NCBI GenBank assembly: GCA_963701995.1
Contig: OY969693.1
Span: 743,724-807,723 of the forward strand
Origin: Methanobacteriota archaeon
GTDB taxonomy: Archaea; Halobacteriota; Bog-38; Methanoflorentales; Methanoflorentaceae
Direction: 5' to 3'
DNA: 64,000 bases
The notes beneath the pieces were generated by a model that was given only the letters and a program-made list of their open reading frames with translations, was not told where the DNA came from and made no database searches. The number at the start of each line of letters is the position of its first letter. Within the stretch, counting starts at the first letter, position 1. The translations under genes were made by a program, and so were the position numbers. This document shows positions 4,042 to 62,248 of the stretch, one piece after another.

Positions 4042-4042
4042 C

Positions 4043-6856: not shown

Positions 6857-6861
6857 GAGCG

Positions 6862-8673
6862 ATGCCACCACCTTCAGTCGCTGAGAGGCTTCACAACCTG
6901 CCGAGCAGTCCGGGCGTCTACCTGATGAAGGACGCCGGTGGAAGAATCATTTACATCGGCAAGGCCGTCTCACTGAAGAACCGAATCCGAACGTATTTTC
7001 ACGGCACGCCAGCGGCGCCGCGAACGAGGGCGCTCGTCGAGCGGGTCGACGACATCGAGTGGATCGTCACCAACACTGAAAAAGAGGCGCTTATCCTTGA
7101 GTCGAACCTCGTGAAGCTTCATAAGCCGCGATACAACGTTCGGCTGACTGATGACGGCAGCTTCCCGTACATCCGAATCACCGACGACCCGTTTCCGAGC
7201 ATCACCGTGACGCGCGCGGTGAGAAACGACGGATCGGCCTATTTCGGCCCGTACACGAGCGCGCAGGCCACACGTCAAAGCGTGAAGGCGCTGCGCAAGG
7301 CGTTTCCGTTGCGCAGTTGCAGCAGAGATCTGCGGCGCGTTCTGAGGCCGTGCCTCAACTATCAACTCAAGCTGTGCGCGGCTCCCTGTGCGGGCAAAAC
7401 GGATCCCGACGCATATGCTCAACTTGTGACGGGCATACAGCGGTTTCTCGAAGGGCGACAAGACGACATTCTCACTGAGCTCAAGCGCGAGATGAACGGC
7501 GCGGCGATGGACATGGAGTTCGAGCGCGCCGCGACGCTGCGCGATCGCATTGCTGTTCTCGAGAGCGTGCGAGAGCAGCAGTACGTCGAGCCGCGTCGCG
7601 GCGACGAAGACGTCATCGCCATCGCCCGTGGAGGTTCACAGGCGTGCGCGCTCATACTCATGGTCCGCGAAGGGAGGGTCACGGGGCAACAATCGTACGC
7701 GCTCCGGGGGACCGAAGGGGCCGAGACGACTGAACTGATGACGGCGTTTGTCAAGCAACACTACTTGCACCTCGAGGGGCCCTACGTCCCGAAGGGCATT
7801 CTTCTCGAGCACGCGATCGAGGAGGCAGAGGCCATCGAAAATCTCCTCACCGAGATCAGAGGAAGCCGCGTCCACGTGAGCGTTCCGCGGGCCGGACCGA
7901 AGACGAGGCTCGTCGCGCTCGCGCACAAGAACGCCGAATCGATGCTCAAGAAGCCAACAGCGGCCGATGCGCTGTACGTTCTTAAAGACGCCCTTCGACT
8001 GCGCTCGTACCCGTACCGGATCGAAGCGTTCGACGTGTCGAACCTCGCCGGTGCCGAGGCGATGGGGTCGATGGCGGTATTCATCGACGGCACACCACAG
8101 GTTAGCGAGTATCGCTCCTACAAGATCAGAAGCGTCGCTGCGATTGACGATTATGCGATGCTCAAGGAGATTGTCGGCCGGCGATATCGAGAACGTGAGG
8201 GCCGCGCGGATCTCATCGTGGTTGACGGAGGAAAGGGACAGGTGCGGGCCGTCAAGGATACTCTGACGATGCTCGGATTGAGGATCCCCCTCGTCGGCCT
8301 CGCAAAGCGCGAAGAGCTCGTTTACGTGCCTGGTCGGTCAGCGCCTGTCGCGGTGCCGCAGATCGCGCTCAACGTGTTGATGCGCGTTCGTGACGAGGCG
8401 CATAAGACGGCCATCAGGAGACATCGCAACTTCCGTTCGCGCCGGCTCTTTGAGAGCACGTTGGATCACATCCCCGGCGTCGGCAAACGGCGAAAAGTCG
8501 AGCTCCTCAAACGTTTCGGATCCGTGGCTCAGCTTAAAAAGGCGAGCCTGGAAGAGATCCAATCCGTGCCTGCCGTTGACAAGACGACCGCCAACAGCGT
8601 GTTCAGTTATTTTAACAAGCGGCAGAAGGTCGCCCGAGTGCCCACCTCGAATACGTACACGACGAACGCGTAA
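6862..8673 (+). CDS. uvrC: excinuclease ABC subunit C (UvrC)
   Basis: 603-aa ORF with an N-terminal GIY-YIG region (GVYLMKD, IYIGKA) and a C-terminal helix-hairpin-helix region; starts 5 nt after the uvrA stop. Confidence 0.93.
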   Translation: MPPPSVAERLHNLPSSPGVYLMKDAGGRIIYIGKAVSLKNRIRTYFHGTPAAPRTRALVERVDDIEWIVTNTEKEALILESNLVKLHKPRYNVRLTDDGSFPYIRITDDPFPSITVTRAVRNDGSAYFGPYTSAQATRQSVKALRKAFPLRSCSRDLRRVLRPCLNYQLKLCAAPCAGKTDPDAYAQLVTGIQRFLEGRQDDILTELKREMNGAAMDMEFERAATLRDRIAVLESVREQQYVEPRRGDEDVIAIARGGSQACALILMVREGRVTGQQSYALRGTEGAETTELMTAFVKQHYLHLEGPYVPKGILLEHAIEEAEAIENLLTEIRGSRVHVSVPRAGPKTRLVALAHKNAESMLKKPTAADALYVLKDALRLRSYPYRIEAFDVSNLAGAEAMGSMAVFIDGTPQVSEYRSYKIRSVAAIDDYAMLKEIVGRRYREREGRADLIVVDGGKGQVRAVKDTLTMLGLRIPLVGLAKREELVYVPGRSAPVAVPQIALNVLMRVRDEAHKTAIRRHRNFRSRRLFESTLDHIPGVGKRRKVELLKRFGSVAQLKKASLEEIQSVPAVDKTTANSVFSYFNKRQKVARVPTSNTYTTNA

Positions 8674-26808: not shown

Positions 26809-27331
26809 AGGTACCTCGGAAGTAGGCTAGTGCCGCGGCGCAAATAGCTTTCGTTTGACCGTCTCACCTTTCTCACTCGCAGTGATTTGAACCGGTCTCA
26901 ACTTCAGGCGAGCTGCTAGTTGGGAATGAGTAGGTGCTTCTGCGTCAAGCAGGCACATTGACCGCCGATCACTTCTGCGCCCGGTAACTTCGGTTGAGCA
27001 CCACGGTGACGCGAGAGGTGAAGTGGCTAATACTAGTGCAAACACAGTGACTATTTATGACTACACAGGAGCGCAAGCCAAAAGAGCCCAGTTTTGTCAC
27101 AGGCCAAGAAGCTCTAATATATGAAGTCGAACGGGCGTGTGGCCAATTAAACAAGCTTAAGGACTTGCAACTAGACGAGCCTTTTTTGCGTGCGGTGGCT
27201 GCGGAAATACGAGCGCACATGAACCACTTAGGGGCAAGCTTGCAGAGCTTAACGGAGCCTTGTGGCTAATGACTGTAGCTAAAACGGCTCGCGCTTGCCA
27301 AGGAGCCTCCTCGGCTTCAGCCCTGCTGCGA

Positions 27332-27601
27332 TCAACTCTCACGTCTGTCCGCGTCGCCTTGCCTACCAACAATCGTGCCCAGCACAAGGCGCTTACTTAG
27401 AGGGCTAAGATACGTGTGACGTCTTTCTTTTTCTTGCCCTTCTCGCTCCACATCCCTGAAGCACGAAACGAGCGCGTCGAGTGCCTGCGTATCATCTAGA
27501 CTAGCCTCGGACTTCTCATAAGCTTTTGTCTTGACCTCTGAAAGCGCGCGGCTCAATAGCTCCGCGTCGCTGCCCGTTAAGATTAGCCCACTTTCTATCA
27601 T
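27332..27601 (-). CDS. small-protein paralog A of a three-copy family (89 aa)
   Basis: MIESGLILTGSDAELLSRALSEVKTK...; AGGAGG Shine-Dalgarno motif upstream; paralogs at 44108 and 60516 share the leader. Confidence 0.5.
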   Translation of the reverse strand: MIESGLILTGSDAELLSRALSEVKTKAYEKSEASLDDTQALDALVSCFRDVEREGQEKERRHTYLSPLSKRLVLGTIVGRQGDADRRES

Positions 27602-27713
27602 CTTTCCCCTCCTGGTCGGTGATTTTTACATGAACTACGTGACATAATGCATGATCGCTTTGTTCTGACGCCGATATTAGCGCCAAAATGGCCTTCATTC
27701 GCCGTGAAGAGAG

Positions 27714-27857
27714 TTAAGCAAGCTTCAAAGGGTAAATGGCCACTGGGCTAGTCTCTGATGTAGCGCGGACGGCGTACTCCTCACAATACGAAACGCCCTC
27801 CCTATCGCCACGCTGCTTACAATGGGCGTACTTTTCGCACCTTTGGCAGTTCATCAT
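27714..27857 (-). CDS. Cys-rich mini-ORF (47 aa) inside repeat family R3
   Basis: MMNCQRCEKYAHCKQRGDREGVSYCEEY...; similar mini-ORFs at 32220-32327 and 31232-31303; coding status uncertain. Confidence 0.2.
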   Translation of the reverse strand: MMNCQRCEKYAHCKQRGDREGVSYCEEYAVRATSETSPVAIYPLKLA

Positions 27858-28070
27858 ATTTGCATTTCATGAATGGCAGAGTAAAGAAGCCTATCCGCGC
27901 GGGGGGAAACTAACCGGGCCAGAAATATCCGGCGATTTGTTCCTCCAACGCGCTTTGCATGTTATGTCTCCATGTGCGTAAGGGTCGCTCGCAAATTCAC
28001 CATCTAGTCGGGTAGGAAATCGTCAAAAGCCCTAATCTGCTTGCCATTGGAGGGCGCATAGACGTTATCC
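27761..28070. repeat. dispersed repeat family R3, copy 1 (about 310 bp)
   Basis: About 80-85% identical to 32234-32530; its 3' half recurs inverted at 58909-59045. Confidence 0.6.
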
Positions 28071-29977: not shown

Positions 29978-30057
29978 GCGCACTCACTACGCTAGGTCAA
30001 GGTGTCCAAGAATTACGACAGCCGCCCCCTTTGCTTGGATTTAATGTTGAATTGCTA
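29978..30057. repeat. 80-bp direct repeat, left copy, flanking the gene at 30172-30915
   Basis: GCGCACTCACTACGCTAGGTC...TTTAATGTTGAATTGCTA; about 88% identical to 30923-31002. Confidence 0.6.
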
Positions 30058-30171
30058 GAGGAAAACCCCATATGCCTCCTTACTTGTTGCCCAAAAACCT
30101 ACTTACTGCACATGCAAAATTACTGTGTTGGTTTTGCGGAGCGTGTTTCTCCTTCGTGATCTGTTTTTTCC

Positions 30172-30922: not shown

Positions 30923-31002
30923 GCGCACTCACTACGCTAGGTCGAGGTGTCCAAAAATTACGACAGCCTTCCCGCTTGCATGAATTTAATGTTGAATTGC
31001 TA
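30923..31002. repeat. 80-bp direct repeat, right copy
   Basis: Matches 29978-30057 in the same orientation. Confidence 0.6.
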
Positions 31003-31459
31003 ACGGGAATACGCCTATACGGTGGCCTAATTAAGGCACAAGCTAATTCAAGGCGTCGGTTTTGGTAGCAGAGCCACGAGGCGACAGAGCGCTGCGAGGG
31101 AAGCCGAGGGGCGTAGCGGTCTCTGTGTGCCGGAATACTTGGAATATTTGGAAGCTATAAAAAGGAGTTTTACTAGTTTTACCTCGCACTCAGCGGTCTT
31201 TCAAGCTTGCTGTTTACTGATCGGAATTTTCTTATTCTTTGTCCGCACAGAGGGGGTAAAATTGCCAACAGGCGTACTTCTCGCACCCTAGACAGCTCAT
31301 CATGTTAGTCTCTTTGGGCAGCAGCGGAAAGCACGTTACCGCGTCGCGAAAATAACTAGGTCGCCGATTTTTGGGTTTTTTCGTATGTGCGCCATACCGA
31401 AAGCTTTATTGTCGCTGCTACTGCGTTATTTGGCGTTTAGTGACGATTGATAACGACCG

Positions 31460-32170: not shown

Positions 32171-32233
32171 AATAGCACCCACTCATTTCGTTTACGATCC
32201 CCTTAGCTCGCCCTGCTAGTTAGTTTAGGATAA

Positions 32234-32530
32234 AGCGCGGACGGCGATATTCTTCGCAATACGGAACGTGCTCCCTATCGCCACGCAACCTACAATGGGC
32301 GTACTTCTCGCACCTTTGGCAGTTCATCACGGGCGCATTTCATGAGTGTAGCGTAAAGAGGGCTATCCACGCGGTGGGAAACTAACCGTCGCCAGGAATA
32401 CCAAAGTCAGCGCATCGGCGATTTATTCCTCCAACGCGCTTTGCATGCCATGTCTCATGTGTGTAGAGGTCGCTCCCAAATTCACCACCTAGACGGGCAG
32501 GAAATCGTCAAAAGCCGTAATCTGCTTGGG
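32234..32530. repeat. dispersed repeat family R3, copy 2
   Basis: Aligns with 27761-28070 in the same orientation; contains the mini-ORF MNCQRCEKYAHCRLRGDREHVPYCEEY on the minus strand (32220-32327). Confidence 0.6.
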
Positions 32531-42185: not shown

Positions 42186-42345
42186 TCGCTAGAAGCAACG
42201 GCAATATTTGGAAATGACCAGAACCTAATAAACGTTCTTCCCCCGTTCCTGTTTGGGCTTCTTTTCTTGACTATCATTGTAGGATTTGCGTTCGACCTTG
42301 AACTGACAAGTGCCGAAGGACTATCTAACGTCAGAATAAGCGGAT

Positions 42346-42390
42346 GACTAGCGCCAAAAAGCCTCAAAAGTACAAGCTTTATCCTGCGAA
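42346..42390. repeat. short dispersed repeat R5 (45 bp), copy 1
   Basis: GACTAGCGCCAAAAAGCCTCAAAAGTACAAGCTTTATCCTGCGAA; about 87% identical to 55202-55246. Confidence 0.5.
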
Positions 42391-43347: not shown

Positions 43348-43720
43348 CTTTTCTCTCCGTGAAATGACGAACAGTTATATTTTCTTTACACGATCTCTAA
43401 TTCGTTAATTCGACGTTTTGCTAGAGCCAAAACGTTGAAATCGCGTTCGCTGATTTTTGTCGTTGCTTGAACATACCAAGCCCAATTTTATTTACATCTT
43501 TTCCGCTGAAAGCGTGCAAGATGATCGCCGCCGACCGTGTCGGCATTGTAGTCACCGAGGAGCGTTCCGCCAGGTGAGACCAAATGATATGCAGGCCGCG
43601 ACGTTTTGGGCCGCCTGCAGCCCGGATCATCAGCACTGGCTGTCCCTGTCCGCGCACTTCGAAATATATTTGAGAATTGCGTTCTGCGTCGTCTTAAAGG
43701 CTTTAATACGCTAAATTTGT

Positions 43721-43967
43721 CGTCTCAAGGGAAACCGCCGTAACGTACTAAATTTGTAATAAAGCTTCAAATAGGTTTTTTGGTTATACTATTGTTGCCT
43801 CGGTTTAGCATTTCTAAGGCTGTGAAACCGCTCCGGTTCCATGGGTCGATGCTTGGTCCAAATAAGTTCGTGTGACTTTTTTAGAAGTACGCGGGGTGGT
43901 TAACAGCCTTAGTTGCCTCTTGTTCTTCTTTCAACACCTAAACTCGCAGCTTACGATCATCGTAAGA
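43721..43967. repeat. repeat family R2, copy 1 (about 245 bp) directly upstream of the small-protein leader
   Basis: About 95% identical to 60127-60370; no frame-conserved ORF between copies; contains a 10-bp inverted repeat pair (43814-43829 and 43898-43912). Confidence 0.65.
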
Positions 43968-44107
43968 GTGCGGCCATTTACCTATTGAAGCTTGCTAAGT
44001 GCGCATAGATAGGAATAACGGGCGGTTTGACGCTATTATTGACGTCGAAAAAAGCGATCACGCTTAATGTCATGTGTTCATGTAAAAACACCGACCAGGA
44101 GGGAAAG

Positions 44108-44483
44108 GTGATTGAGAAGGGATTAATCTTAACGGGCAGCGACGCGGAGTTATTGAGCCAGGCGCTTGCGGAAGTCAAAACAAAAGTCTCTGAAGAGTCC
44201 GATGCTAGTTTAGATGATACTCAAGCACTGGATGCACTCGTTTCGTGTATTAGAAATGGGGAAAAAGAAGGACAGCAGAAAGAAGGACAGCAAGCGTCGT
44301 AGCCTCTTACGCAAGCGCCTTATCTTGGGCACGCTTCTCGATAGGCAAGGCCGCGCGGATGGAAAGAAACGCATACACTTCATCCAGAGCCCGGTGTCCT
44401 TGATTCTCGCACATTTCTTCTATTTTGGCCGTGCGAGCTCACTAAGTCCTCCTTTTTTTCAGCTGCGGCAAACCGCTAGATAA
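44108..44483 (+). pseudogene. small-protein paralog B, frameshifted
   Basis: GTG start after AGGAGGG; the first 64 codons match paralogs A and C, then TAG at 44300-44302, while the conserved C-terminal segment (LRKRLILGTLLDRQGRADG) continues in another frame. Confidence 0.4.
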
Positions 44484-44703
44484 ATAGCCACATAGGTGGT
44501 ATGGAGCAATTCACTGCGGGAGCATAACGCATAGTGTCGAGGACGCCTAGAAACCAAAGCATCTCCGTTGGATCTACGGCACAGCCGAAATCATTTGCGC
44601 ACGTCCTCCAATTAGACAGATTTTTTGCCGAGAAAATCCTTTCCTAGTTCAACCAGAAAACAATTTGAAATCAAAGAATAAAGCCGGTTAGGGAGGGGTT
44701 AAT

Positions 44704-46125
44704 ATGGCCAATGAGTTCCGTAAGGAAATCGATAGTTTAGGTGAAGTCAACGTGCCTGCTGATAAGTTGTGGGGGGCGCAAACGCAACGTTCGTTGGAGC
44801 ATTTTAGTATCGCAGGCGATTTGATGCCGCGAGAGATGATTGAATCCTACGCCATATTAAAAAAAGCAGCAGCTATCGTGAATTTCCAGCTCGGCCAACT
44901 GACGGAGGACCGCCGGGATTTGATAGTCAAAGTGTGTGATGAAATTCTGGCCGGTCAACATCAGGACCAGTTTCCTCTTCACGTATGGATGACAGGAAGC
45001 GGGACTCATTTCAACATGAATGTAAATGAGGTTATTTCCAATCGCTGCTCCCAGCTAACCGGAAATCCCCTGGGCAGTAAAATACCGGTGCATCCCAATG
45101 ATCACGTTAATAGGTCACAGTCTTCAAATGACTCATTTCCGTCGGCCATGCATATTGCTGCAGCAAAAGCGATAAATCAGCGATTAATACCGTCCGTGAA
45201 ACATTTACGCGATTCGTTACACGCCAAGGCAGAAGAATGGAAGGACATTGTAAAGGTAGGCCGGACCCATATGCAGGATGCTACCCCCCTCACCTTTGGG
45301 CAGGAATTTTCTGGCTATGTAGGGTTGTTGGATGATAATCTAGACCGTTTAGATACCAATGTGCGAGAAGTATACCGTTTGGCGTTGGGAGGCACTGCAG
45401 TAGGGACAGGAATTAACGCTCCTCCGGGATTTGACGAAAAAGTGGGAGCTCAAATCGCAAAACTAACTGGCCTTCCGTTTGTAACTGCGCCAAACAAATT
45501 CGCCGTCCAAGGCTCTCATGATGCCCTGGTCATGCTGAGCGGCACCCTAAAAACCCTGGCAACGTCCCTATATAAAGTTGCTAACGATATTCGTATCTTA
45601 TGTTCTGGGCCGCGCTGTGGGTTAAATGAACTTAGTATTCCATCTAATGAGCCAGGGTCTTCTATTATGCCCGGGAAGGTCAACCCATCCCAGTGTGAAG
45701 CTTTGGCCATGGTGGCCGTGCAGGTAATGGCTAACGACATAGCAGTTGCTTTTGGTGGAGGAGGTGGTTATCTGGAAATGAACGTGTATAAGCCACTAAT
45801 AATCCACAACATTATGCATTCCATCCAAATTATGGCAGATGGGTGCCACAACTTCCGGTTGTTCCTCGTGGAAGGAGCTGAACTTAATAGAAAGCAGATT
45901 AACACCTTCTTGGAACGATCGCTCATGTTGGTAACTGCCCTTAGTCCTATTATTGGCTATGATAAAGCATCAAAAGTCGCCCACTATGCGCTCGATAATG
46001 ATTTAACGCTTAAAAAAGCTGCTATAGAGCTTGGCTGTATGCCAGAAGACGAATTTGATCGTGTGGTCGATCCGGCGAAGATGGTGTATCCCCGTGTTTC
46101 TCAGCGTGACGGTGACGGCAATTAG
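44704..46125 (+). CDS. fumC: class II fumarate hydratase (aspartase/fumarase superfamily)
   Basis: 473 aa; signature [17 protein letters not shown] and conserved [14 protein letters not shown] region. Confidence 0.9.
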
Positions 46126-46202
46126 ACGCGGGAAACTGGTCTAAAATGACTATTCAACAGCAGTGAGTTCCTTTTCCGTATAACGTGTAAGGGTGGGTAG
46201 TA

Positions 46203-47906
46203 GTGATTCGGCACCACGATGTTCTCATTATCGGAGGAGGTTTGACTGGACTTCGGGCTGCCCTACGCATCTCAGATGCCGGCCTGAACGGGGCGGTAGT
46301 CTCCAAGGTGCATCCGTTGCGGTCTCATTCTGTGGCAGCCCAGGGCGGAATGAATGCCGCATTTGGGAACGTTAAGGGCGAAGATGGCACGACGGACAGC
46401 TGGAAAAGTCACGCGCGCGATACCGTTGCAGGATCTGATTATCTAGCCGACCAGGACGCCGTTGAACGCATGTGTCGTGAGGCTCCTACCGCCGTTATCG
46501 AACTCGAACACATGGGGATGGTGTGGTCAAGAATTGACAACGGAAAAATTGCACAGCGCCCTTTCGGCGGGGCAGGATTTCCAAGAACCTGTTATGCAGC
46601 AGATCGCACCGGTCACAACGCGCTCCACACCCTGTATGAACATGCGTCGCAGCGGGAAATCCCGGTTTATGAGGAGTTTATCGTCACGTCGCTCATAACT
46701 AATGACGGACGGTGCGTTGGATGCACGGCCCTGGAACTCATGACAGGCCAGGTCCACGGCCTCCTCGCAAAGGCTGTCCTCATGGCCACTGGCGGTTTTG
46801 GCCGGATATTCAACAGGTCGACAAATGCGTTAATTAGCACCGGTGACGGACAGGCCCTCGCGCTGCGTGCGGGCGCACTGCTCAAGGACATGGAGTTTGT
46901 CCAGTTCCATCCGACCACCCTTTACCGGACGAACATTTTGATCACGGAAGGGGCCCGCGGTGAGGGGGGCATCCTCCTCAACCAGAATGGCGAGCGCTTT
47001 ATGGCACGGTACGCTCCGAAGTCGATCGACCTCGCCCCGCGTGATGTGGTGGCACGGGCTATCGAACGGGAAATCGCCGAGGGAAGAGGATATGAGGGAG
47101 GTTATGTGCACCTTGACCTGCGCCATTTGGGCGCGGATCGGATCAGGGAACGGTTGCCAGGGATACGGCAGATCGCGATGGATTTTGCTGGTGTCGATCC
47201 TATCCAGGATCCGGTGCCGATCCAACCAGGTCAGCACTACTCTATGGGCGGTATTGATGTCGATATCAACGGCGCCAGCACACTTCCGGGCCTCTACGCT
47301 GCAGGTGAGTGTGCCTGTGTCAGTGTCCACGGAGCGAACCGGCTTGGTGGAAATTCTCTCGTGGAAACCGTAGTATTCGGACGGCTGGTCGCCGAGAAAA
47401 TCATCGAGGATGTTGCCCAAATCACCCCTCCCGATAATGGGCCGGCAAAAGCCGCCGTGACGCGTGTAAACGCTAGAATCGGCGGCATACTTCGACGTGA
47501 GGGAGGAGAACGCGTCTTTATGATTAGGGATATGATGACCGACACGATGTCCACCAAATTCGGAATATTCCGTGAAGAACAGAAGATGCAGGAAGGCCTC
47601 GACGAGATCAAAAAAATGCAGGAACGTGTTTCCCACGCTTCGCCCCAGAACAAAGAGCGCCAATTAAACCAGGCACTTGTACGGTTCTTGGAGCTGGAGG
47701 GAATGCTCCTCCTGGCTGAGGCAGTTGCCCGTGGGGCGCTTGCCCGGGAGGAGAGCAGGGGTTCCCACACGAGGAAGGATTACCCCGAACGCGACGATCA
47801 TAACTTCCTCAAACACACGCTGGTGGGATTGCGAGACGAAACAATGTATGTTTCGTATAAGCCCGTTGCGTTAGGCGTGTTTGAGCCACAGGAGCGCGTT
47901 TACTGA
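46203..47906 (+). CDS. sdhA: succinate dehydrogenase / fumarate reductase flavoprotein subunit
   Basis: 567 aa; FAD-binding DVLIIGGGLTGLRAAL, RSHSVAAQGG FAD-attachment region, and HGANRLGGNSL active-site motif; GTG start. Confidence 0.9.
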   Translation: MIRHHDVLIIGGGLTGLRAALRISDAGLNGAVVSKVHPLRSHSVAAQGGMNAAFGNVKGEDGTTDSWKSHARDTVAGSDYLADQDAVERMCREAPTAVIELEHMGMVWSRIDNGKIAQRPFGGAGFPRTCYAADRTGHNALHTLYEHASQREIPVYEEFIVTSLITNDGRCVGCTALELMTGQVHGLLAKAVLMATGGFGRIFNRSTNALISTGDGQALALRAGALLKDMEFVQFHPTTLYRTNILITEGARGEGGILLNQNGERFMARYAPKSIDLAPRDVVARAIEREIAEGRGYEGGYVHLDLRHLGADRIRERLPGIRQIAMDFAGVDPIQDPVPIQPGQHYSMGGIDVDINGASTLPGLYAAGECACVSVHGANRLGGNSLVETVVFGRLVAEKIIEDVAQITPPDNGPAKAAVTRVNARIGGILRREGGERVFMIRDMMTDTMSTKFGIFREEQKMQEGLDEIKKMQERVSHASPQNKERQLNQALVRFLELEGMLLLAEAVARGALAREESRGSHTRKDYPERDDHNFLKHTLVGLRDETMYVSYKPVALGVFEPQERVY

Positions 47907-48676
47907 TGAACCTGAAAGTGTACCGATACCGTGAGGGAATGGCTGCGCCCCGTTACGATACCTTTGAGCTGGTGCCAAGTCCAGGAATGACGGTGTTGGA
48001 GGCTTTATTCGTGGTCCAGGAACAGCTCGATGATTCACTCGCATTTCATTATTCCTGCCGTGGAGCAGTCTGTGGAACCTGTGCGATGTTAATCAACAAA
48101 GTCCCCCGCCTGGCGTGCCGTACCCAAGTCGAATCTCTCCTGAAGGGAGCCCTCAAGGTCGCTCTTGCCCCGTACCCGGCACTTAGCGAGATTGTGCCGT
48201 GGGATCCCGAAAAAGAGGTTTTGGTGGAGCCCCTTCCCCATTTGCCTGTCATCAAGGATCTTATTGTGGATATGGATGTATTTTTCCGGTTCTACCGGTT
48301 CATAGAACCAGTTTTTCGATCACGCGATGCCACTCCTGAAAAGGAGCGGCTGATGGATCCTGCCGCTGTTAAGAAGCTCGAAGTGTACACGAACTGCATT
48401 CTGTGCGCCGCGTGTCACGGCGCCTGTCCCGTTGCAGGACAAAATCCCAGGTACCTCGGACCTGCTGCCCTCGCCAAACTCTACCGCTTTCACATTGACT
48501 CGCGAGAGGTTGAACAAAACAACTCAATACTCAAACGAGCAGACGTACCAGATGGCTGGTGGGCCTGTGAAATGTATGGGAACTGTAACCTGGTGTGCCC
48601 CAAAGGCGTTCCCCCCAGAACCGCAATCGCAAAAGCCGTGGCAGCACTGCACAGAGAGAGAAAAGAAGCCGATTAA
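47906..48676 (+). CDS. sdhB: succinate dehydrogenase / fumarate reductase iron-sulfur subunit
   Basis: 256 aa; 2Fe-2S motif CRGAVCGTC and two Cys clusters (CILCAACHGACP, CEMYGNCNLVCP); ATG overlaps the sdhA TGA by 1 nt. Confidence 0.88.
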   Translation: MNLKVYRYREGMAAPRYDTFELVPSPGMTVLEALFVVQEQLDDSLAFHYSCRGAVCGTCAMLINKVPRLACRTQVESLLKGALKVALAPYPALSEIVPWDPEKEVLVEPLPHLPVIKDLIVDMDVFFRFYRFIEPVFRSRDATPEKERLMDPAAVKKLEVYTNCILCAACHGACPVAGQNPRYLGPAALAKLYRFHIDSREVEQNNSILKRADVPDGWWACEMYGNCNLVCPKGVPPRTAIAKAVAALHRERKEAD

Positions 48677-49982: not shown

Positions 49983-51339
49983 TTCGGCTATTCGATGGTT
50001 GTAGACCAACCTGCGGCGATTGTCGACGCAAATTGCACGCGCCTCGCTTTTTTCTGCGTGCGCTTTTGCCTGATGGCGTTTTGAATCACGACGCCTCACA
50101 GCGGCGATCTTCCGTTTGAGCTCCACGGAATCTTCTTTATCGCGTCATTAGCAACGCGTTCTGCTCGCCATGCGAGACATGCTCATTTCAATGGAAGCAG
50201 CTGTTCGTTTTGCTTACGACGCAGAGCCTGAGCTTCATAAGCCGAGGTGTGAGTGCTGCGCCTGCAACTGAGCATCGTAAAACAGCTGATCGCACGATGC
50301 GTCGGGTTTATACGGCATTGCTCTCACCCCTCCGGCACGAGTTCGTAGTTCACGAGCACATTGTCCACAAACACGAAGCGCAGTAAACACCCGTACCGGT
50401 CGGTTTCAGAGACATCTTTGACAAGGGTAACGGTTTTGCTCGCATCCTGCTCTCAATCCCTTGCGGTGGCTTCAGGCCCAAGCCATTCTTTCTTCGTAGT
50501 ATCTTACGCGTGTCGATTCCAATGCACAGCACCTCGTATTTCGATCGCCTGCTCGGATAGGTTCCTGCCTTTCCGTAGATCTTATCACAAACGCTTCGGT
50601 CCGACCTTGCGTTTTTATGCGTGAAGCGAGCTGCACGCCCACGTCATAGTACTCGGCAAGCTCGTTTTCTGACGGCACGAAATACGTTTCCAGCTCTTGG
50701 AGCACCTCAAAGCCACAGGCTGAAACGGCTTTTGCGAGCTTCGCGGCCCCGCCGAAACCGACGGCTTGAGATATGAAGTGCATTAATTAAGGCACGCATG
50801 TGCATCCATATAGTGCAATGATGTCTTATATGGAACCATACGACTGAGACTATTTATGTGGCAAAAATCTGGAGAAGTTGACACAGCAGAAGAAGTGTGT
50901 ACTGACGGGTTTCCGTAATGTGAGTGAGGGATAAAATGATTAAATCTACCCATACATTGAAAGATTATAAAACTCTGGTTAAACTGATTACAGAATTGTG
51001 CGAGAAAGGAGCAAACCAAAGTGCCAAAGATAATCGTGACTCAGTGGACACCGCTGCTTCTTTTGCAAATGGGCGATATGTTGCCTACCTGGAAGTGTTA
51101 AATCTGATTGTTAATTATAAAAAAGAGGACAAAGAATGAACTGGGGCCGGACCAACTTAGAGAACGCCGCGCAGCGTGTTTTACCCTCTCCGTAGTTCCT
51201 AGCTCGTTGTTTCTTTTTAAGATTTAAAGGCTGCAGCATCGTCCGTTTCAGGAGTATGTCTGCACCACTTTATAGTGATAGGCCCCCAGATGCCCCTGCA
51301 ACGTGGTAAAGCCATAGTACGCCATCAATATGGTTCGTC

Positions 51340-51831
51340 ACGGTTGCAATTTGGAGCGCGATTCGTCGAGGTGTAGCAGGACCAAGAAATCAGTCCACAA
51401 ATCGACAAAAATTCAACCTCAGACCGTCAAAAGTGGGGGCTCTGGGCCAGGAGGGAGCCAGCGTGACAGCCCATGGCCCAGACGATCTGCTTCACCACTG
51501 CCCCCCAAAGGAGATAATACGTGGTGTTGCGGCACTAAAGACCCGCGAAGTAGCATAAACGTTTCCGGTGTTTGATGACGACTGGCGCAAAAACGCGTGC
51601 CGGGGCGAATGAAACACACGGAGATCCGCTCGGTCGAGGCATAAGGCGCTGCTATGAGTATGAGGTCAAACGCGTGAGGTGTCACGTCAACAGAACCTAC
51701 ATCTCTCCTGCAGCGGCCTTACGCGCGTTTACCAGTATTTTCTTTCCATATAAACGTAGGGAGCTCAGAGCGGGCGATCTCTTAAAAAATAACGCTCCAA
51801 AGCATTGTAAAACCTGCAATGGCTCCGAAAA
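51340..51831. repeat. composite repeat (degenerate R3 3' part + R4), copy 1
   Basis: 51397-51831 aligns with 59041-59526 at about 80% identity with indels; reading frames are not conserved between copies. Confidence 0.55.
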
Positions 51832-52562
51832 CACTGGTGCAAAATTGACGAGAGATTATGCGAACGGTCCGGTCTCGTCGCTGATGCTTAGTGGTCAGCA
51901 TCCGTTTGTTTCGAGCCGTGGCTCCGGAACCATCTAATGATACACTTGATATAGAGATGCTGATAAGAAGGTCACGCGATAAAGCGACAAAAGACTTTTT
52001 GTCGCCATCATACTAGTTTACGGAGAAAATTCGGGCTGATATCGGATGACCCAAGCCTGCCGGCCGTCCATGCAATGAACAAGTCAGCGATGGTGCTAAT
52101 GTCTGTGCGAGGTGAGGTGCGTTGGACGATAGCTTGCGCGACGCCGAAATTGCGTTGGATCTAGATAAGAACATCTGTCCGGCATGTGGCGTGGCGTATA
52201 CTGAAGAGACGAAGTTCTGTCAGAACTGCGGCAAAAGACTCGAGGTCGCCCCCGCTAAACGAGAGAGAAAATTTCTGCTCTGGCTGCGGCGCCTATTACG
52301 TCGAACACGCTGAAATTTGCCGCAGCTACAGAAAAGCATTTGCGCCTGCGCCTCGAGAAATCGGCCTACGTGCAAACGGTGAATTGGAAGATTGGCGCTT
52401 ATGCCACCTTATAACGATCCTTAAACCTGCACCACCATTTAAGTGTGAAAAAATGCAAAAATGGAGGGGGCTCCCGACAAAAAAATGGGAAATGCGTATT
52501 TACATCAATCAGAATGTTTTTTTGGCGCGCTCTCAAGCGCGTCGACAAGGAGTTGAAATACA

Positions 52563-55063: not shown

Positions 55064-55201
55064 CGTCACCCGTCCTTTGCCGCGTTCATAGCTCGCCTAC
55101 TCAAGGCCACAATGACCTGTTGCGCGATACTACTGGCACGCATCATCAGCTCAACCAGTTGGCGAAGCGGAGTCCTTATTGTATCCTCTCAGCTGTCTCG
55201 T

Positions 55202-55246
55202 GACTAGCGCCAAAACGCCTCAAAATTAGAAGCTTTAGCCTGCGAA
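55202..55246. repeat. short dispersed repeat R5, copy 2
   Basis: Matches 42346-42390. Confidence 0.5.
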
Positions 55247-56169: not shown

Positions 56170-56604
56170 CTAAAGAGAACCAAAAGTTACAATGATCCAT
56201 TCCCTTATCTCGTCACGCACGCGCCTAAAAGACGTGCACGGTGCACTTTCAGGCCCCGCGTCTAAGACAGGATCGTCAAAGGCGTGATGGATGTACTCGG
56301 TCCCTCCGGGGATAATGGCTCCGGGGAAAATGGGGCATCTCTCTTGGGCGTCAGCACACATGGTCACGACGTAGTCGAAGGATCCGTCGAGATACTCGTC
56401 GAGCGGCTTTGCGTGCTGTGAGGCAATGTCGATGCCCTCCTCTGCCATCACTTCGATAGCGCACAAGTGCATTTCGGTCGGTTCGCTGCCGGCGCTGTAT
56501 GCTTCGTAACGATCACCGTAACGCGCGTTGACGAACCCTTCGGCCATCTGTGAGCGCGCCGCATTGTGCGTGCAAAGGAACAAGATCCTTTTTTTCGCGT
56601 TCAT
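56170..56604 (-). CDS. arsC: arsenate reductase (LMW-PTP / thioredoxin-coupled ArsC family)
   Basis: Start at the internal Met (MNAKKRILFLCTHNAARSQMAEG); P-loop CTHNAARS and downstream catalytic Cys. The track ORF extends to 56892, probably spuriously. Confidence 0.85.
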   Translation of the reverse strand: MNAKKRILFLCTHNAARSQMAEGFVNARYGDRYEAYSAGSEPTEMHLCAIEVMAEEGIDIASQHAKPLDEYLDGSFDYVVTMCADAQERCPIFPGAIIPGGTEYIHHAFDDPVLDAGPESAPCTSFRRVRDEIREWIIVTFGSL

Positions 56605-56887
56605 CTTCTTAGAACCCTCCAAAAACAGAGTGCCGAATCCATTCTTGTAAGAAGATACAGCATCTGGTTCATAACCACATCCTATAGTTTTTCTATATCG
56701 TGGGTGCACCCTGCACGACCCGTTTAGCGGCCGAACCCTATTACCTTTGCACGCGCTACCTCTGAACTTGGCCCGTAGATCAAAGCAAATCGAAGAAAGA
56801 TGCAGTCTCAGTCTTATTGCCTCTGATATTGCCGCTTTATCCGGTAACTTGCTGCGCTTAAATCGCACCAAAAAGACTTCCGAGCTG

Positions 56888-57000
56888 ACCATTTACCCTT
56901 TGAAGCTTGTTTAGAGCATGCCTCAAAGAATAACGGCCATTTTAACGCTAATATTGGCTCAGAAAAAAGCGATCGTGAATTACGCTTCTTGGGAATAGAA
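56888..57000. repeat. solo copy of the small-protein leader (no downstream paralog gene)
   Basis: GACCATTTACCCTTTGAAGCTTG...AACGGCCATTTTAACGCTAATATT aligns with the leaders at 27602-27747, 43968-44107 and 60371-60515. Confidence 0.5.
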
Positions 57001-58908: not shown

Positions 58909-59526
58909 TGGTTAACGCCTGTGCGCTCTCCAATGGCAAGCAGATCACGCATTTTGACCTTGGCCTGCTTGTCTAGGTGGTGAATTTGGGAGCGACCCCT
59001 ACACACACGGGAGATATACCATGCAAAGCGCGTTGGAGGAACAAATCGACCAAAATTCAACCTCAGACCGTCAAAACTGGGGGCTCTGGGCCAGGAGTGA
59101 CAGCTCATGACCCAAAGCGATTTGCTTCACCACTGCCACCTAAGGAGATAATCCGTGGTGTTGCAGAAGGCAAAGACTCATGAAGCAGCATAAATGTTTC
59201 CGACATTTGGTAACGAACGCAAAAACGTGCGCTGCAGGGGGGGATTACACAAGATTCGGGCGCCGTGGGGAGCATAAGGCGCTGATGAACATGAGGTCAA
59301 GCGCGTGCATCATCACGTAGACCGTCTGTGGCAGGCACCTCGAAGCGACGCCAGTCGGGTCAAGCGTGCGGCATCACGTAAAGGAACCTACATCTCCCGC
59401 TACAGCGCCTTATGCGCGTTTTTCTGGTTATTTCCTTTGAATATAAACGTGGGTAGCTCCGAGCGGGCGCTCTTTTGAAAAATAACGCTCTAAAGCGATT
59501 TAATACCTGCAATGGCTCCGAAAAAA
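58909..59526. repeat. composite repeat (inverted R3 3' part + R4), copy 2
   Basis: 58909-59045 is the reverse complement of the R3 3' half; 59041-59526 aligns with 51397-51831 and has an internal duplication of about 50 nt. Confidence 0.55.
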
Positions 59527-59710
59527 CGGTAGAGCTTTAAGGAGAGAATAAGCGAATGTGCTATACCAACGACCGGTTAGTTCTACCACGCGCATAGCCC
59601 CCTATGCAACTTTTTGCCAATGTTTTCTTTGGAAGCTTCAAGTAGTACAAGGGTTTGTCACAAATGTTTAAGTCGCCCACTGTTAGAGCATTCAACAAGG
59701 AGATGACGCA

Positions 59711-60010: not shown

Positions 60011-60126
60011 TAACTGCTCTTTTTATCAGCTGCCGCTCACGAGTAGGCCAGCAAAACGAACTTTGGAAGTGCCGGAGCCGAGCTTGCGTTCAAGGCGTGC
60101 ACAGATCCGAATCTATGCTAACTTAT

Positions 60127-60370
60127 CGTCTCGAGGGAAACCGCCGTAACCTACTAAATTTGTAATAAAGCTTCAAATAGGTTTTTTGGTTATACTATTG
60201 TTGCCTCGGTTAGCATTTCTAAGGCTGTGAAACCGCTCCGGGCATGGGCCGATGCTTGGTCCAAATAAGTCCGTGTGACTTTTTTAGAAGTACGCGGGGT
60301 GGTTAACAGCCTTAGTTGCCTCTTGTTCTTTTTTTAACACCTAAACTCGCAGCTTACGGTCAGCGTCAGG
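60127..60370. repeat. repeat family R2, copy 2
   Basis: About 95% identical to 43721-43967 and, like it, placed directly 5' of the conserved leader. Confidence 0.65.
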
Positions 60371-60515
60371 GTGCGGCCATTTACCTTTTGAAGCTTGCTT
60401 AACGCTCTTCGCGGTGAATAACGGCCATTTTGACGCTAATATCAGCGTCAGAACAAAGCGATCATGCATTATGTAAGGTGGCGCACACAAAAAGTACCGA
60501 TAAAGGAGGAAAAAA

Positions 60516-60800
60516 ATGATTGAAAGCGGACTAATTTTAACCGGCAGCGACGCGGAGCTATTGAGCCGTGCGCTTTCAGAAGTCAAAACAAAAGTCTATG
60601 AGGAGTCCGAGACGAGTCTAGATGATACCCAAGCACTCGATGCACTCCTTTCGAGTTTCAGAACTGCGGAGACCGAAGAACGGGCAAAAGAACGAAGTCA
60701 CGCGTATCTTAGCCCCTTGGGTAAGCGCCTTATGCTTGGCACGATTATCCATAGGCAAGGCGGCGCGGACGGCCATAAGAGCGGCTCGCAGCAGAGCTAA
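60516..60800 (+). CDS. small-protein paralog C (94 aa), apparently intact
   Basis: MIESGLILTGSDAELLSRALSEVKTKVYEESETSLDDTQALDALLSSF...; AAAGGAGG 8 nt upstream. Confidence 0.55.
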   Translation: MIESGLILTGSDAELLSRALSEVKTKVYEESETSLDDTQALDALLSSFRTAETEERAKERSHAYLSPLGKRLMLGTIIHRQGGADGHKSGSQQS

Positions 60801-60897
60801 ACGCCGGAGGGGACTCTTTTGCAAGCGCGGCTGCAGTTTTAGTATACTTTTCTTTTCAACGGAGCGTCCCGTTTCCCTGCGGCTATCTCTTGGCTAA

Positions 60898-61441: not shown

Positions 61442-62248
61442 TCACACTAAATCTTTAAGCGCATCCAACAAAGCCTTTCGCTCGACTGAGCCCGTCGGAG
61501 ATATGTAGAAATCAACGCCACGACCTCTTCCACGCCCTTTTCGTTCAACTTCAACATAACCGTACAACTCCAATTCAGCAGTGAGTTCGGAAAGGGTCTT
61601 GTGCGAGACCTGTTCACGTCCGTTAAGCCTCATAATATTGTTAAATTCCCTATAAACCTCAGTTGGCGACTGCTTTTCCTCTTTACTGTATACGGTTTCT
61701 AGCAACACCTTCTGATGTGGTGAGAGACGTACCACTTCTCTGCGTAACAACGACACTTCTGCAAGTCGTTCCGCACGACGCACATCCTCTTCTGCAACAG
61801 TCGTTCGCCCTTCTTCTTCACAAAGGTCAGCAGCAGTTGATAGCAAATCAAGCGCATATCGGGCATCGCCGTTTCTCTGTGCCGCTAATGCAGCGCATAA
61901 CGGAATCACTTCATCGCTCAGCGCATTCGGATAAAACGCCTGTTCAACGCGATACTCCAGAATATCCCTTAACTGAGGCGCGTCATAAGCCGGAAAAGTA
62001 ACATCTACATATACATACGATGACTGGTCACGGGCGTCGGTGATTAGTGTAGGGAAGTCATATTTGTTCGTGATCCCGATAAGACAGATGTTAGAATCTC
62101 GCGTGAACTTGTAGATGGGGCTATATTCGTCTTTTCTGTTCTTAATGAGCATTTTGTCTATCTCATCGAGAATAATGATCGCAATATTCCCTTTGACCTT
62201 CTGTTCGATTTTTGTCCAGTACTCGTTAGTTTTAACCGGTTGCTTGTT
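61442..62248 (-). pseudogene. orc1: Orc1/Cdc6 replication-initiator gene remnant lacking the Walker A region
   Basis: Open frame includes Walker B IAIIILDEID, FPAYDAPQLRDILEYRVEQAF, CAALAAQRNGDARYALDLL and the C-terminal winged helix; upstream it stops at TGA (62249-62251), the preceding PYRV-like segment is in another frame, and no GxxGxGKT motif is found. Confidence 0.7.

What the first reader, a model, noticed from the sequence alone, without database searches (positions are those of the whole stretch)
60371..60850. Three-copy small-protein module with a conserved ~140-bp leader, plus one solo leader
A roughly 90-aa protein (MIESGLILTGSDAELLSRALSEVKTK...) occurs three times within 33 kb: 27332-27601 (minus), 44108-44483 (plus, frameshifted) and 60516-60800 (plus). 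Each copy follows a conserved leader that starts GGCCATTTACC(C/T)TTTGAAGCTTGCTTAA, carries an imperfect palindrome (GACGCTAATATCAGCGTC at 60432-60449) and ends in a strong AGGAGG ribosome-binding site. A fourth leader without a gene sits at 56888-57000 beside a ribbon-helix-helix ORF. Similarity continues about 50 bp past the stop codons, so the unit behaves as a duplicating or mobile module. I do not recognise the protein family.
Basis: seen in the sequence. Interest (0 to 1): 0.7.

Follow-up and report, generated by a model that had tools for sequence, protein, structure and literature searches.

The report
Repeated small-protein gene with shared promoter
An uncultured peat archaeon carries several old, selectively maintained copies of an unknown ~90-residue protein gene, each behind the same conserved unstructured control region; it is a gene family with a reusable promoter, not a jumping element.

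Summary
The leader motif occurs four times (0 expected by chance). Three copies precede a ~90-aa ORF: 60516-60800, 27332-27601 on the minus strand, and a disrupted copy from 44108. The fourth (56886-982) stands alone.

It is not an IS, MITE or assembly artefact. The copies are old paralogues (w27/w60 dS 0.74, dN 0.046). Each is closer to copies in other genomes than to its window siblings. No terminal inverted repeats or transposase were found.

The protein has over 400 homologues, all small and all from peat or wetland archaeal MAGs of the 'bog_38' lineage. It has no Pfam, NCBIfam, PHROG, PADLOC or PDB match. The model shows two helices and a disordered tail.

The leader evolves about three times slower than synonymous sites but has no consensus RNA structure. 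I read it as a promoter/operator plus a 5'UTR with a Shine-Dalgarno site. It holds a TATA-like CTAATAT inside a covarying dyad, then a near-invariant 19-nt block.

The leader is modular. Of 66 leaders, 56 precede this gene. Others precede an unrelated 67-aa protein or a non-coding element, or stand alone. A 35-aa Cys-rich mini-ORF sits upstream in 24 of 61 assessable loci.

The protein's function is unknown. Interest is moderate.

The parts
60375..60402 (+). U1 box of the w60 leader (GGCCATTTACCTTTTGAAGCTTGCTTAA). An optional upstream element.
   Evidence: It is present in only about a third of leaders elsewhere (22 of 66). Mean pairwise identity is 0.49.
60416..60467 (+). Leader core. It holds the dyad TGACG (60431-60435) / CGTCA (60446-60450) around a TATA-like CTAATAT (60436-60442), then the near-invariant block CAGAACAAAGCGATCATGC (60449-60467). 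Inferred to be a promoter/operator, with the transcription start predicted near 60464-60468.
   Evidence: Logo of 65 leaders. Dyad statistics. Pairwise identity 0.75 against 0.65 at third codon positions. The same CTAATA box sits 25-32 nt upstream of two other ATGs in the window. The transcription start itself is inferred, not shown.
60468..60515 (+). Unstructured 5' UTR with Shine-Dalgarno AGGAGG (60504-60509), 6 nt before the ATG.
   Evidence: RNAalifold gives zero consensus pairs. One-base indels among copies show it is non-coding.
60516..60800 (+). Small-protein gene 'c0', intact, 94 aa.
   Evidence: 430 homologues. Codon-position identities 0.82/0.87/0.65. dN/dS about 0.13.
60801..60842 (+). 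Conserved 3' tail ending in GTTTTAG. Probably the 3' UTR and a weak oligo-T terminator.
   Evidence: The terminator role is inferred.
27602..27741 (-). Leader of copy w27 (U1, core, UTR and SD).
27332..27601 (-). c0 copy w27, intact, 89 aa.
   Evidence: Against w60, dN is 0.046 and dS 0.74. The closest relative is L003, at 0.89 nucleotide identity.
27714..27857 (-). Cys-rich mini-ORF directly 5' of the w27 leader. The consensus is 35 aa, MMNCQRCEKYAHCKLRGDKEQVPYCEEYRRPRYIRD. This copy is frameshifted and reads on into U1.
   Evidence: The mini-ORF is upstream of the leader in 24 of 61 assessable loci.
27057..27269 (+). 'c5', a 70-aa ORF convergent with w27.
   Evidence: The region 27018-27334 is 97% identical in nucleotides to L003. 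c5 lies downstream of c0 in 8 of 57 loci.
43972..44107 (+). Leader of copy w44.
44108..44483 (+). c0 copy w44, disrupted. GTG start, stop after 64 codons at 44300-44302, remainder in another frame. It lies about 220 nt upstream of the fumarase gene (44704).
56886..56982 (+). Solo leader (U1 plus core). Similarity ends just after the GCGATCGTG block, and no c0 gene follows.
60145..60361 (+). 'E' module upstream of the w60 leader, with a second copy at 43739-43961. Conserved and non-coding. It holds a 13-nt inverted repeat (60219-60231 / 60303-60315) that the alignment fold extends to a stem of about 20 bp, and T-runs at 60280-60285 and 60329-60335.
   Evidence: By the known oligo-T termination rule of archaeal RNA polymerase, the T-runs should stop read-through. 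That places the c0 promoter inside the leader (inference).
61442..62152 (-). Truncated Orc1/Cdc6 gene (lid plus winged helix, no Walker motifs), convergent with w60.
   Evidence: Remnants of differing length lie downstream of c0 in 12 of 57 loci.
50936..51139 (+). 67-aa 'MIKS' protein gene. In other genomes (L002, L150) this gene sits directly behind a complete copy of the same leader. In this window it has a different upstream region.

Best explanation
This is a lineage-restricted family of paralogous small-protein genes, here called c0 (87-94 aa). It belongs to the uncultured peat archaeal lineage represented by MAG 'bog_38' (Halobacteriota). Each copy is expressed from the same self-contained control region of about 140 nt.

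Shown:
- c0 is a real coding gene under strong purifying selection.
- The leader core and UTR are conserved well beyond the neutral rate.
- The leader has no conserved RNA secondary structure.
- The copies are ancient paralogues that sit next to the same flanking genes in different genomes.
- The leader also occurs in front of unrelated cargo, or alone.
- About a fifth of c0 copies are decayed.

Inferred:
- The leader works at the DNA level as an archaeal promoter. A TATA-like CTAATAT box lies inside a 5-bp dyad, which would be an operator for a dimeric repressor competing with TBP/TFB. A near-invariant 19-nt block spans the -15 to +3 region. An optional upstream U1 box precedes all this.
- The promoter gives an unstructured 5' UTR of about 50 nt with a strong Shine-Dalgarno site.
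- All copies are therefore co-regulated as a small regulon.
- New arrangements arise by duplication and by recombination at short homologies. In L150 the c0 CDS was replaced by another small gene exactly at the SD-ATG spacer.

The protein has an acidic two-helix N-terminal domain and a disordered tail with the conserved motif Y-(L/F)-S-P-L-x-K-R-L-x-L-G-T. It is most likely a small protein-binding adaptor or regulator. Possible partners are the Cys-rich 35-aa mini-protein often encoded just upstream, or the 70-aa c5 protein encoded convergently. Its biochemical function is not known.
For: Family and lineage:
- The leader motif occurs 4 times against 0 expected.
- There are 430 homologues, all 80-160 aa, from peat or wetland archaeal MAGs and metagenomes. 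Only 146 clusters at 50% identity exist and there are no distant relatives.

Selection on the gene:
- Codon-position identities are 0.82/0.87/0.65.
- Median dN is 0.11 and dS 0.85. For w27 against w60, dN is 0.046 and dS 0.74.

Selection on the leader:
- Leader core identity is 0.75 and UTR 0.71, against 0.37-0.39 in the flanks.
- The median leader distance is 0.28, against dS 0.85.
- RNAalifold finds no consensus structure on either strand, and Rfam gives nothing.

Promoter features:
- The logo shows GCTAATAT and CAGAA(A/C)AAA(C/G)CGATCA(Y)GC almost invariant across 65 copies.
- The dyad is 72% Watson-Crick, against 6-53% when one arm is slid.
- One dyad position covaries between A-T and T-A (Fisher p = 7e-5, not corrected for phylogeny).
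- CTAATA boxes lie 25-32 nt upstream of two other ATGs in the window.
- T6 and T7 runs lie just upstream of the w60 leader.

Age and position:
- Each window copy is nearer to copies in other genomes (0.81-0.89) than to its window siblings (0.75-0.81).
- Flanking genes are shared with those loci.

Modularity:
- Of 66 leaders, 56 have the c0 ATG at a fixed distance: about +101 nt from the core in most, about +370 nt in the five class-B loci.
- In L002 and L150 the leader precedes the MIKS protein, which is unrelated to c0 by hhalign.
- In L142 the leader precedes a non-coding element.
- Solo or truncated leaders occur at W56886 and in L024.
Against: - There are no transcript data, so the TATA assignment and the transcription start are inferences from sequence. 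Other T-rich boxes (CATTTACC in U1, CCATTTTGAC) could be the real TATA. That would put the invariant block inside the transcript.
- Where the Cys-rich mini-ORF lies upstream, the 'leader' could be an intercistronic spacer of a two-gene transcript.
- The near-invariance of a 19-nt block is more than a basal promoter needs, and it remains unexplained.
- The protein model is only moderately confident (pLDDT 65), and no fold or family match gives a function.
Confidence: 0.6

Rival explanations
1. A non-autonomous mobile element (MITE-like or cassette-like) that copies itself around the genome, carrying a small ORF and an outward-firing promoter.
For: - There are several copies plus a solo leader within 33 kb.
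- Intergenic modules are arranged as a mosaic.
- The leader is found in front of different cargo.
- About 20% of copies are decayed.
- Mobile-element debris lies nearby: Cdc6 remnants, an integrase fragment in L158, and an 880-bp two-gene insertion in L024.
Against: - No inverted repeats lie at the ends of the modules, and the module ends differ between copies.
- No transposase was seen among the flanking ORFs scanned with Pfam.
- dS between window copies is 0.74, with strong purifying selection on the gene.
- Copies have closer relatives next to the same flanking genes in other genomes.
- No relatives occur in IMG/VR.
Confidence: 0.07
2. The leader is a structured cis-regulatory RNA in the 5' UTR (riboswitch, attenuator or thermometer) that controls translation or termination of c0.
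For: - The leader is conserved beyond synonymous sites.
- It lies at a fixed distance from the ATG.
- The dyad could form a 5-bp hairpin, with one covarying pair.
Against: - RNAalifold finds 0 pairs in 19 sequences and essentially none in 22, on either strand.
- The second position of the dyad is a C-A mismatch in about half of the copies.
- Rfam gives no hit even at permissive E-values.
- Single-base indels fall in the UTR part.
Confidence: 0.07
3. c0 is an orphan antitoxin-like or centromere-binding-like ribbon-helix-helix protein left over from integrated plasmids. It would bind the dyad in its own promoter (autoregulation). Its disordered tail would bind a partner that is now lost or encoded elsewhere.
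For: - The N-terminus has a strand-helix-helix pattern (GLILTG-SDAELLSRAL...), followed by a disordered tail with a conserved motif.
- A dyad lies over the TATA-like box.
- Cdc6 replicase remnants lie next door.
Against: - No RHH Pfam model matches, even at E <= 10.
- hhalign against a hand-made RHH alignment gives a probability of 0.35%.
- By my own count, residues 1-49 have about 10 acidic and 4 basic residues, and the putative strand has no basic or polar DNA-reading residues.
- The helices are about twice the RHH length.
- No toxin-like gene is adjacent.
Confidence: 0.12
4. The leader boxes are origin-recognition-box-like sites for Orc1/Cdc6 proteins, so the loci are relics of replication origins.
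For: Truncated Orc1/Cdc6 genes recur downstream of c0 (12 of 57 loci).
Against: - There is one leader per gene, at a fixed distance from its ATG.
- The leaders are spread over 33 kb rather than clustered around an AT-rich unwinding element.
- The Cdc6 genes are remnants of differing length.
- Most c0 loci have no Cdc6 nearby.
Confidence: 0.03
5. The copies are assembly artefacts (duplicated or collapsed repeats).
For: None beyond the repetition itself.
Against: - The copies are only 76-83% identical and have different flanks.
- Equivalent multi-copy arrangements appear in many independent MAGs and metagenome contigs.
Confidence: 0.01

Closest known systems
Paralogous small-protein (micro-protein) genes of archaea, such as the zinc-finger micro-proteins of Haloferax volcanii and the small proteins of Methanosarcina mazei (from my own knowledge, not tested here)
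   Same: - Very small, lineage-specific ORFs, present in several copies and absent from domain databases.
- The upstream 35-aa ORF here has four Cys residues, like the zinc-finger micro-proteins.
   Different: - c0 has no Cys motif and no sequence relation to those families.
- Here the copies also share a control region of about 140 nt, conserved across paralogues that have dS of about 0.85.
Archaeal promoters whose repressor site overlaps the TATA box/BRE, such as the TrmB-, Lrp- and MDR1-type operators (established knowledge)
   Same: A short dyad brackets an AT-rich box about 25 nt upstream of the predicted transcription start, followed by an A-rich proximal region.
   Different: - No regulator has been identified.
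- The box CTAATAT is not the canonical TTTATATA.
- The 19-nt block downstream is far more conserved than a basal promoter requires.
MITE-type intergenic repeats that carry promoters, such as the Correia elements of Neisseria (own knowledge)
   Same: - A short repeated intergenic unit that can sit in front of different genes and presumably drive them.
- Solo copies exist.
   Different: - No terminal inverted repeats, no target-site duplications and no sign of recent transposition.
- The copies are old and under selection.
- This organism is an archaeon.
Type II antitoxins and ParG/omega-type ribbon-helix-helix proteins
   Same: - Size.
- A folded N-terminal part and a disordered C-terminal part with a conserved motif.
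- A dyad in the gene's own promoter.
   Different: - No sequence or profile similarity.
- The N-terminal domain is acidic.
- The helices are long.
- No partner toxin or ATPase gene is present.

Membership tests
IS element / MITE | Terminal inverted repeats at the ends of the repeated unit | tested here: not met
   The inverted-repeat search on all three copies finds no pair at the module ends. The module ends also differ between copies.
IS element / MITE | Near-identical copies, target-site duplications and a transposase somewhere in the genome | tested here: not met
   The copies are 76-83% identical, with dS 0.74. No transposase domain was found among the flanking ORFs scanned. The rest of the genome is not available.
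Structured cis-regulatory RNA (riboswitch or leader, Rfam family) | A conserved secondary structure supported by covariation, or a match to a covariance model | tested here: not met
   RNAalifold gives 0 pairs and -0.4 kcal/mol. Rfam gathering and E-value scans are empty.
Ribbon-helix-helix superfamily / type II antitoxin | Sequence or profile match to RHH families | tested here: not met
   Pfam at E <= 10 gives no RHH model. hhalign against CopG, Arc, Mnt, ParG and omega (sequences recalled from memory) plus the window's own 57-aa RHH-like ORF gives a probability of 0.35%.
Ribbon-helix-helix superfamily / type II antitoxin | A strand-helix-helix fold that forms an intertwined dimer | tested here: inconclusive
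Ribbon-helix-helix superfamily / type II antitoxin | An adjacent, co-transcribed toxin gene | tested here: not met
   The neighbours are a 35-aa Cys-rich ORF about 150 nt upstream and convergent c5 or Cdc6 remnants. None matches a toxin or defence model.
Integron-type gene cassette | A promoterless ORF with a 3' attC recombination site, next to an integron integrase | tested here: not met
   The conserved element is 5' of the ORF and carries the SD. The 3' tail is only about 42 nt. No integrase lies at the array; there is only a distant integrase fragment in L158.
Archaeal replication origin (ORB elements) | Clustered ORB repeats flanking an AT-rich unwinding element, beside an intact orc1/cdc6 gene | tested here: not met
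   The leaders are 3-17 kb apart, one per gene. The Cdc6 gene is truncated. No AT-rich dip is seen.
Any described protein family (Pfam, NCBIfam, PHROGs, PADLOC, PDB) | A significant profile or structure match | tested here: not met
Archaeal promoter with an operator (functional class, not a family) | A mapped transcription start about 25 nt downstream of the TATA-like box, and a protein bound to the dyad | not testable with these tools
   Only sequence inference is available: box position, an A-rich proximal region, upstream T-runs, and analogous boxes at other genes.

The most novel reading that the evidence does not exclude
The Cys-rich 35-aa mini-protein, c0 and (in some loci) the 70-aa c5 may form a previously undescribed small-protein system. 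It would have been domesticated from integrated replicons of this peat archaeal class, and could act, for example, as an antitoxin-like, anti-defence or replication-control module. A dedicated regulator would switch it on through the near-invariant 19-nt block and the dyad. The leader would then be a portable 'regulon entry ticket' that recombination at SD microhomology attaches to new small genes.
Probability: 0.15. Interest if true: 0.6.

Novelty: new member of a known kind. Interest (0 to 1): 0.35.

Why it matters
- It defines an undescribed, strongly conserved small-protein family, and a conserved non-coding control element, in an abundant but uncultured class of peat archaea for which almost no regulatory biology is known.
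- The leader is an unusually clean candidate for an archaeal promoter/operator. The 66 natural variants found here could be tested directly by mapping public peat metatranscriptomes.
- The locus also shows how small genes in archaea are gained, swapped and lost behind a fixed control region.
- It does not reveal a new kind of mobile element or RNA.

Tried and rejected
Protein searches that gave no usable hit:
- Pfam, NCBIfam, PHROGs and PADLOC scans of c0 and its neighbours gave nothing significant.
- A PDB sequence-profile search gave nothing below E = 0.69.
- A profile search of 1.84 billion representatives found only the family itself.

RNA searches:
- Rfam gathering and permissive scans of the window and the class-B loci were empty.
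- RNAalifold on the leader found no structure on either strand.

Mobile-element and virus checks:
- IMG/VR had no protein relative. The 11 hits to the 19-mer pattern matched only that short stretch of the leader profile, so I took them as chance.
- The exact-match contig look-up of the window protein returned nothing.

Hypotheses rejected:
- The region upstream of w60/w44 is homologous to the class-B element. The alignment was unconvincing.
- c0 is related to the MIKS protein (hhalign probability 0.09%).
- c0 is an RHH by profile.
- A conserved upstream ORF or an overlapping antisense ORF lies in the leader. Frame-breaking one-base indels and the codon-position pattern favour only the c0 frame.
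- The leaders are origin or ORB sites.
- The copies are assembly duplicates.

Full report
**1. Observation**

The 28-nt leader motif matches at 27714-27741(-), 43972-43999(+), 56887-56914(+) and 60375-60402(+), with none expected in shuffles.

The ORFs are 60516-60800(+), 94 aa, and 27332-27601(-), 89 aa. The 44108 copy has a GTG start, a stop after 64 codons at 44300-44302, and the rest in another frame.

Self-BLAST gives 27279-27741 ~ 60842-60375 (81%), 43714-44362 ~ 60120-60772 (83%) and 56889-56982 ~ 60377-60471 (80%). Similarity therefore runs about 42 nt past the stop. w44 and w60 also share a further 255 nt or so upstream.

**2. Host and context**

The window is archaeal chromosome. It carries uvrB/A/C (the long ORFs at 2080-8673, assigned by eye rather than by a scan), fumarase and succinate dehydrogenase A/B (44704-48676), and a truncated Orc1/Cdc6 gene (61442-62152, minus strand). 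Ordinary metabolic genes lie between the copies.

The small protein, here called c0, has 430 database homologues at E <= 0.01. All are 80-160 aa and lack Pfam domains. Where named, they come from 'Halobacteriota archaeon' MAGs.

A scan of species-representative genomes found 26 loci. All are in peat or wetland MAGs (isolates 'bog_38' and 'fen_3', SPRUCE, and Danish MFD bins), with 2-5 copies per MAG.

A full HMM search of 1.84 billion representatives found only 146 clusters, all short, many of them fragments, and no distant family. No relative was found in IMG/VR viral contigs.

**3. c0 is a real, selected gene, and the copies are old**

Over 19 copies, pairwise identity is 0.82, 0.87 and 0.65 at codon positions 1, 2 and 3. 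Nei-Gojobori estimates on codons 1-49 of 39 intact copies give a median dN of 0.11 and dS of 0.85. For w27 against w60, dN is 0.046 and dS 0.74.

Each window copy is closer to copies in other genomes than to its window siblings:
- w60 to L001/L112: 0.88
- w27 to L003: 0.89
- w44 to L005: 0.81
- among the window copies: 0.75-0.81

Flanking genes are shared with those loci. For example, the Ig-like gene lies downstream of both w60 and L001, and the c5 gene lies downstream of w27, L002, L003, L005 and L006.

These results exclude an assembly artefact and recent transposition. No terminal inverted repeats mark the module ends. About 11 of 51 c0 reading frames are disrupted, so the family turns over by birth and decay.

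**4. The leader**

Across copies the leader core has pairwise identity 0.75 and the UTR 0.71. That is above third codon positions (0.65) and far above the flanks (0.37-0.39). Its median distance is 0.28 against dS 0.85. It is therefore under selection in its own right.

It is not a structured RNA. RNAalifold gives zero consensus pairs in 19 sequences and essentially none in 22 longer ones, on either strand. Rfam finds nothing. One-base indels show it is non-coding.

A profile alignment of 65 leaders shows three features:
- a well-conserved GCTAATAT box;
- an almost invariant block CAGAA(A/C)AAA(C/G)CGATCA(Y)GC;
- a dyad TG(A/T)CG-N10-C(G/A)(T/A)CA around the box.

In the dyad, three of the five positions are conserved as complements and one covaries: A-T in 34 copies, T-A in 9, T-T in 6 (Fisher p = 7e-5, not corrected for phylogeny). 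The Watson-Crick fraction is 0.72, against 0.06-0.53 when one arm is slid.

The promoter reading is an inference and rests on four points:
- (a) CTAATA boxes lie 25-32 nt upstream of the ATGs of two other genes in the window. One (22351) is preceded by CGAAAAA, which resembles a BRE. The other is c5.
- (b) The block downstream is A-rich, as archaeal promoter-proximal regions are.
- (c) T6 and T7 runs at 60280-60285 and 60329-60335 should terminate incoming archaeal transcription. An intact, selected c0 at 60516 then needs a promoter between 60336 and 60503.
- (d) Intact copies that lack any shared upstream gene have only the leader in common.

The predicted transcription start is near 60464-60468. 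That gives an unstructured 5' UTR of about 50 nt with AGGAGG 6 nt before the ATG.

**5. Modularity**

A metagenome scan for a 19-nt degenerate pattern from the conserved block, filtered with the leader profile and combined with the other loci, gave 66 true leaders.
- 56 are followed by c0 at a fixed spacing: about +101 nt from the core in most loci, and about +370 nt in the five class-B loci.
- In L002 and L150 a complete leader, including the SD, precedes an unrelated 67-aa protein (MIKSTHTLKDYK...; hhalign probability 0.09% against c0).
- L150 is the orthologous locus of w60. It has the same E module and leader at 90% identity and the same Ig-like gene downstream. There the c0 CDS has been replaced exactly at the SD-ATG spacer.
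- The same 67-aa gene exists in the window at 50936-51139, behind a different upstream region.
- In five 'class-B' loci the leader is followed by a conserved non-coding element of about 170 nt that ends in an oligo-T run. A tiny ORF then overlaps the c0 start.
- L142 has this non-coding element without c0.
- Solo leaders (window 56886-56982, and L024) end just after the invariant block.

**6. Neighbours**

- A 35-aa Cys-rich mini-ORF (MMNCQRCEKYAHCKLRGDKEQVPYCEEYRRPRYIRD) ends 5-10 nt before U1 in 24 of 61 assessable loci. These include w27, where it is frameshifted. A leaderless copy lies at 32220-32330.
- A 70-aa ORF, c5 (27057-27269), is convergent with c0 in 8 loci. It is 97% identical in nucleotides between the window and L003.
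- Orc1/Cdc6 remnants of varying length follow c0 in 12 of 57 loci.
- One long contig shows an integrase fragment 6 kb away, among many genes without domains.

None of these proteins matches a described family. The picture is of small genes, probably derived from old integrated replicons, that are now fixed in the chromosome.

**7. The protein**

AlphaFold with 39 sequences gives pLDDT 65. Residues 11-31 and 37-62 are helices, modelled at pLDDT 84-89 up to about residue 50. Residues 1-10 are coil and the tail is disordered.

Conservation is concentrated in residues 1-49 and in the motif Y-(L/F)-S-P-L-x-K-R-L-x-L-G-T at 64-76.

I therefore favour a protein-binding adaptor or regulator, and I rate the antitoxin-like RHH reading as a minority option.

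**8. Verdict**

But it is a selected, ancient paralogous gene family with a reusable promoter/operator and 5' UTR. It is not a mobile element and not an RNA switch.

It is a new member of a known kind and of moderate interest. The unexplained near-invariance of the 19-nt block, and the recurrent pairing with a Cys-rich mini-protein, are the features most worth following up.

Noticed in passing
window 50936-51139 (+); L002 4264-4464 (-); L150 6486-6686 (-): A 67-aa protein of unknown family (MIKSTHTLKDYKTLVKLI...). In the window it has its own upstream region. In two other genomes it sits directly behind a complete copy of the c0 leader, with the junction in the SD-ATG spacer. In L002 a flavodoxin-like gene follows with an ATGA overlap; in the window only a stub of that gene remains.
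   Followed up: partly
window 32220-32330 (-) and 27714-27857 (-): Two copies of a 35-aa mini-ORF with four Cys residues (MMNCQRCEKYAHC.LRGD.E.VPYCEEYRRPR...). A conserved upstream region (TTAGTTTCCCACCGCGTGGATAGCCCTCTTTAC) suggests a leaderless transcript. The 27.8-kb copy is frameshifted.
   Followed up: partly
window 27018-27334: The 70-aa ORF c5 (27057-27269) and its flanks are 97% identical in nucleotides to locus L003 and 90-96% to four others. This is more conserved than the adjacent c0 gene. Variation is mostly at third codon positions.
   Followed up: partly
window 60145-60361 and 43739-43961; also L150, L001, L023, L009: A conserved non-coding 'E' module with a 13-nt inverted repeat (60219-60231 / 60303-60315) that the alignment fold extends to a stem of about 20 bp (consensus fold -32 kcal/mol, little covariation), plus internal T6 and T7 runs. 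Its start carries an inverted copy of the U1 sub-motif TTTGAAGCTT. It may be a small RNA gene; the strand is unknown.
   Followed up: partly
window 27749-28070, 32221-32528, 58910-59048 (inverted); 51397-51864 and 59041-59556: Further intergenic repeat modules (77-85% identical) that combine in different orders with the c0 module. One contains the start of an ORF, MQSALEEQIA..., which is a full 65-aa ORF in L150, hydrophobic enough by eye to be a membrane protein.
   Followed up: no
window 61442-62152 (-): An Orc1/Cdc6 gene that lacks its N-terminal ATPase half (lid and winged helix only). Remnants of different lengths, 81-92% identical in nucleotides (87-95% in protein), recur next to c0 in L010, L015, L111 and L123, with shorter fragments in L050, L007 and L009. 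More distant Cdc6 remnants (34-54% protein identity) lie next to c0 in L002, L003, L006 and L091.
   Followed up: partly
L004, L013, L014, L018, L019 (about 250 nt between leader core and c0) and L142 7170-7365 (-): A conserved non-coding element of about 170 nt behind the same leader, ending in TTGTTGTTTTTT. Its consensus fold is stable (-39 kcal/mol), but six sequences at 88% identity are too alike to show covariation. A 47-aa acidic ORF (MNETDQKIL...) follows and overlaps the c0 start.
   Followed up: partly
L024 2046-2920: An insertion of about 880 bp splits a leader from its c0 gene. On the opposite strand it carries a 155-aa zinc-ribbon-like protein and an 80-aa protein, with diverged copies of the mini-ORF end plus U1 on both sides. 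A related ORF (same BLAST cluster, c15) lies upstream of the second leader in L002.
   Followed up: no
window 29978-30073 / 30923-31018 and 42345-42390 / 55201-55246: Two more short direct-repeat families (84-91% identical), unrelated to the c0 module.
   Followed up: no
window 56170-56892 (-): The 240-aa ORF is probably over-extended. The low-molecular-weight phosphatase/ArsC-like domain starts at residue 103, and a plausible start (MNAKKRILFLC...) lies near 56604. About 280 nt of non-coding sequence then separates it from the solo leader.
   Followed up: no
window 44108-44704: The decayed c0 copy, with its apparently intact leader, lies about 220 nt upstream of the fumarase and succinate-dehydrogenase genes on the same strand. 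The leader might contribute to their transcription.
   Followed up: no
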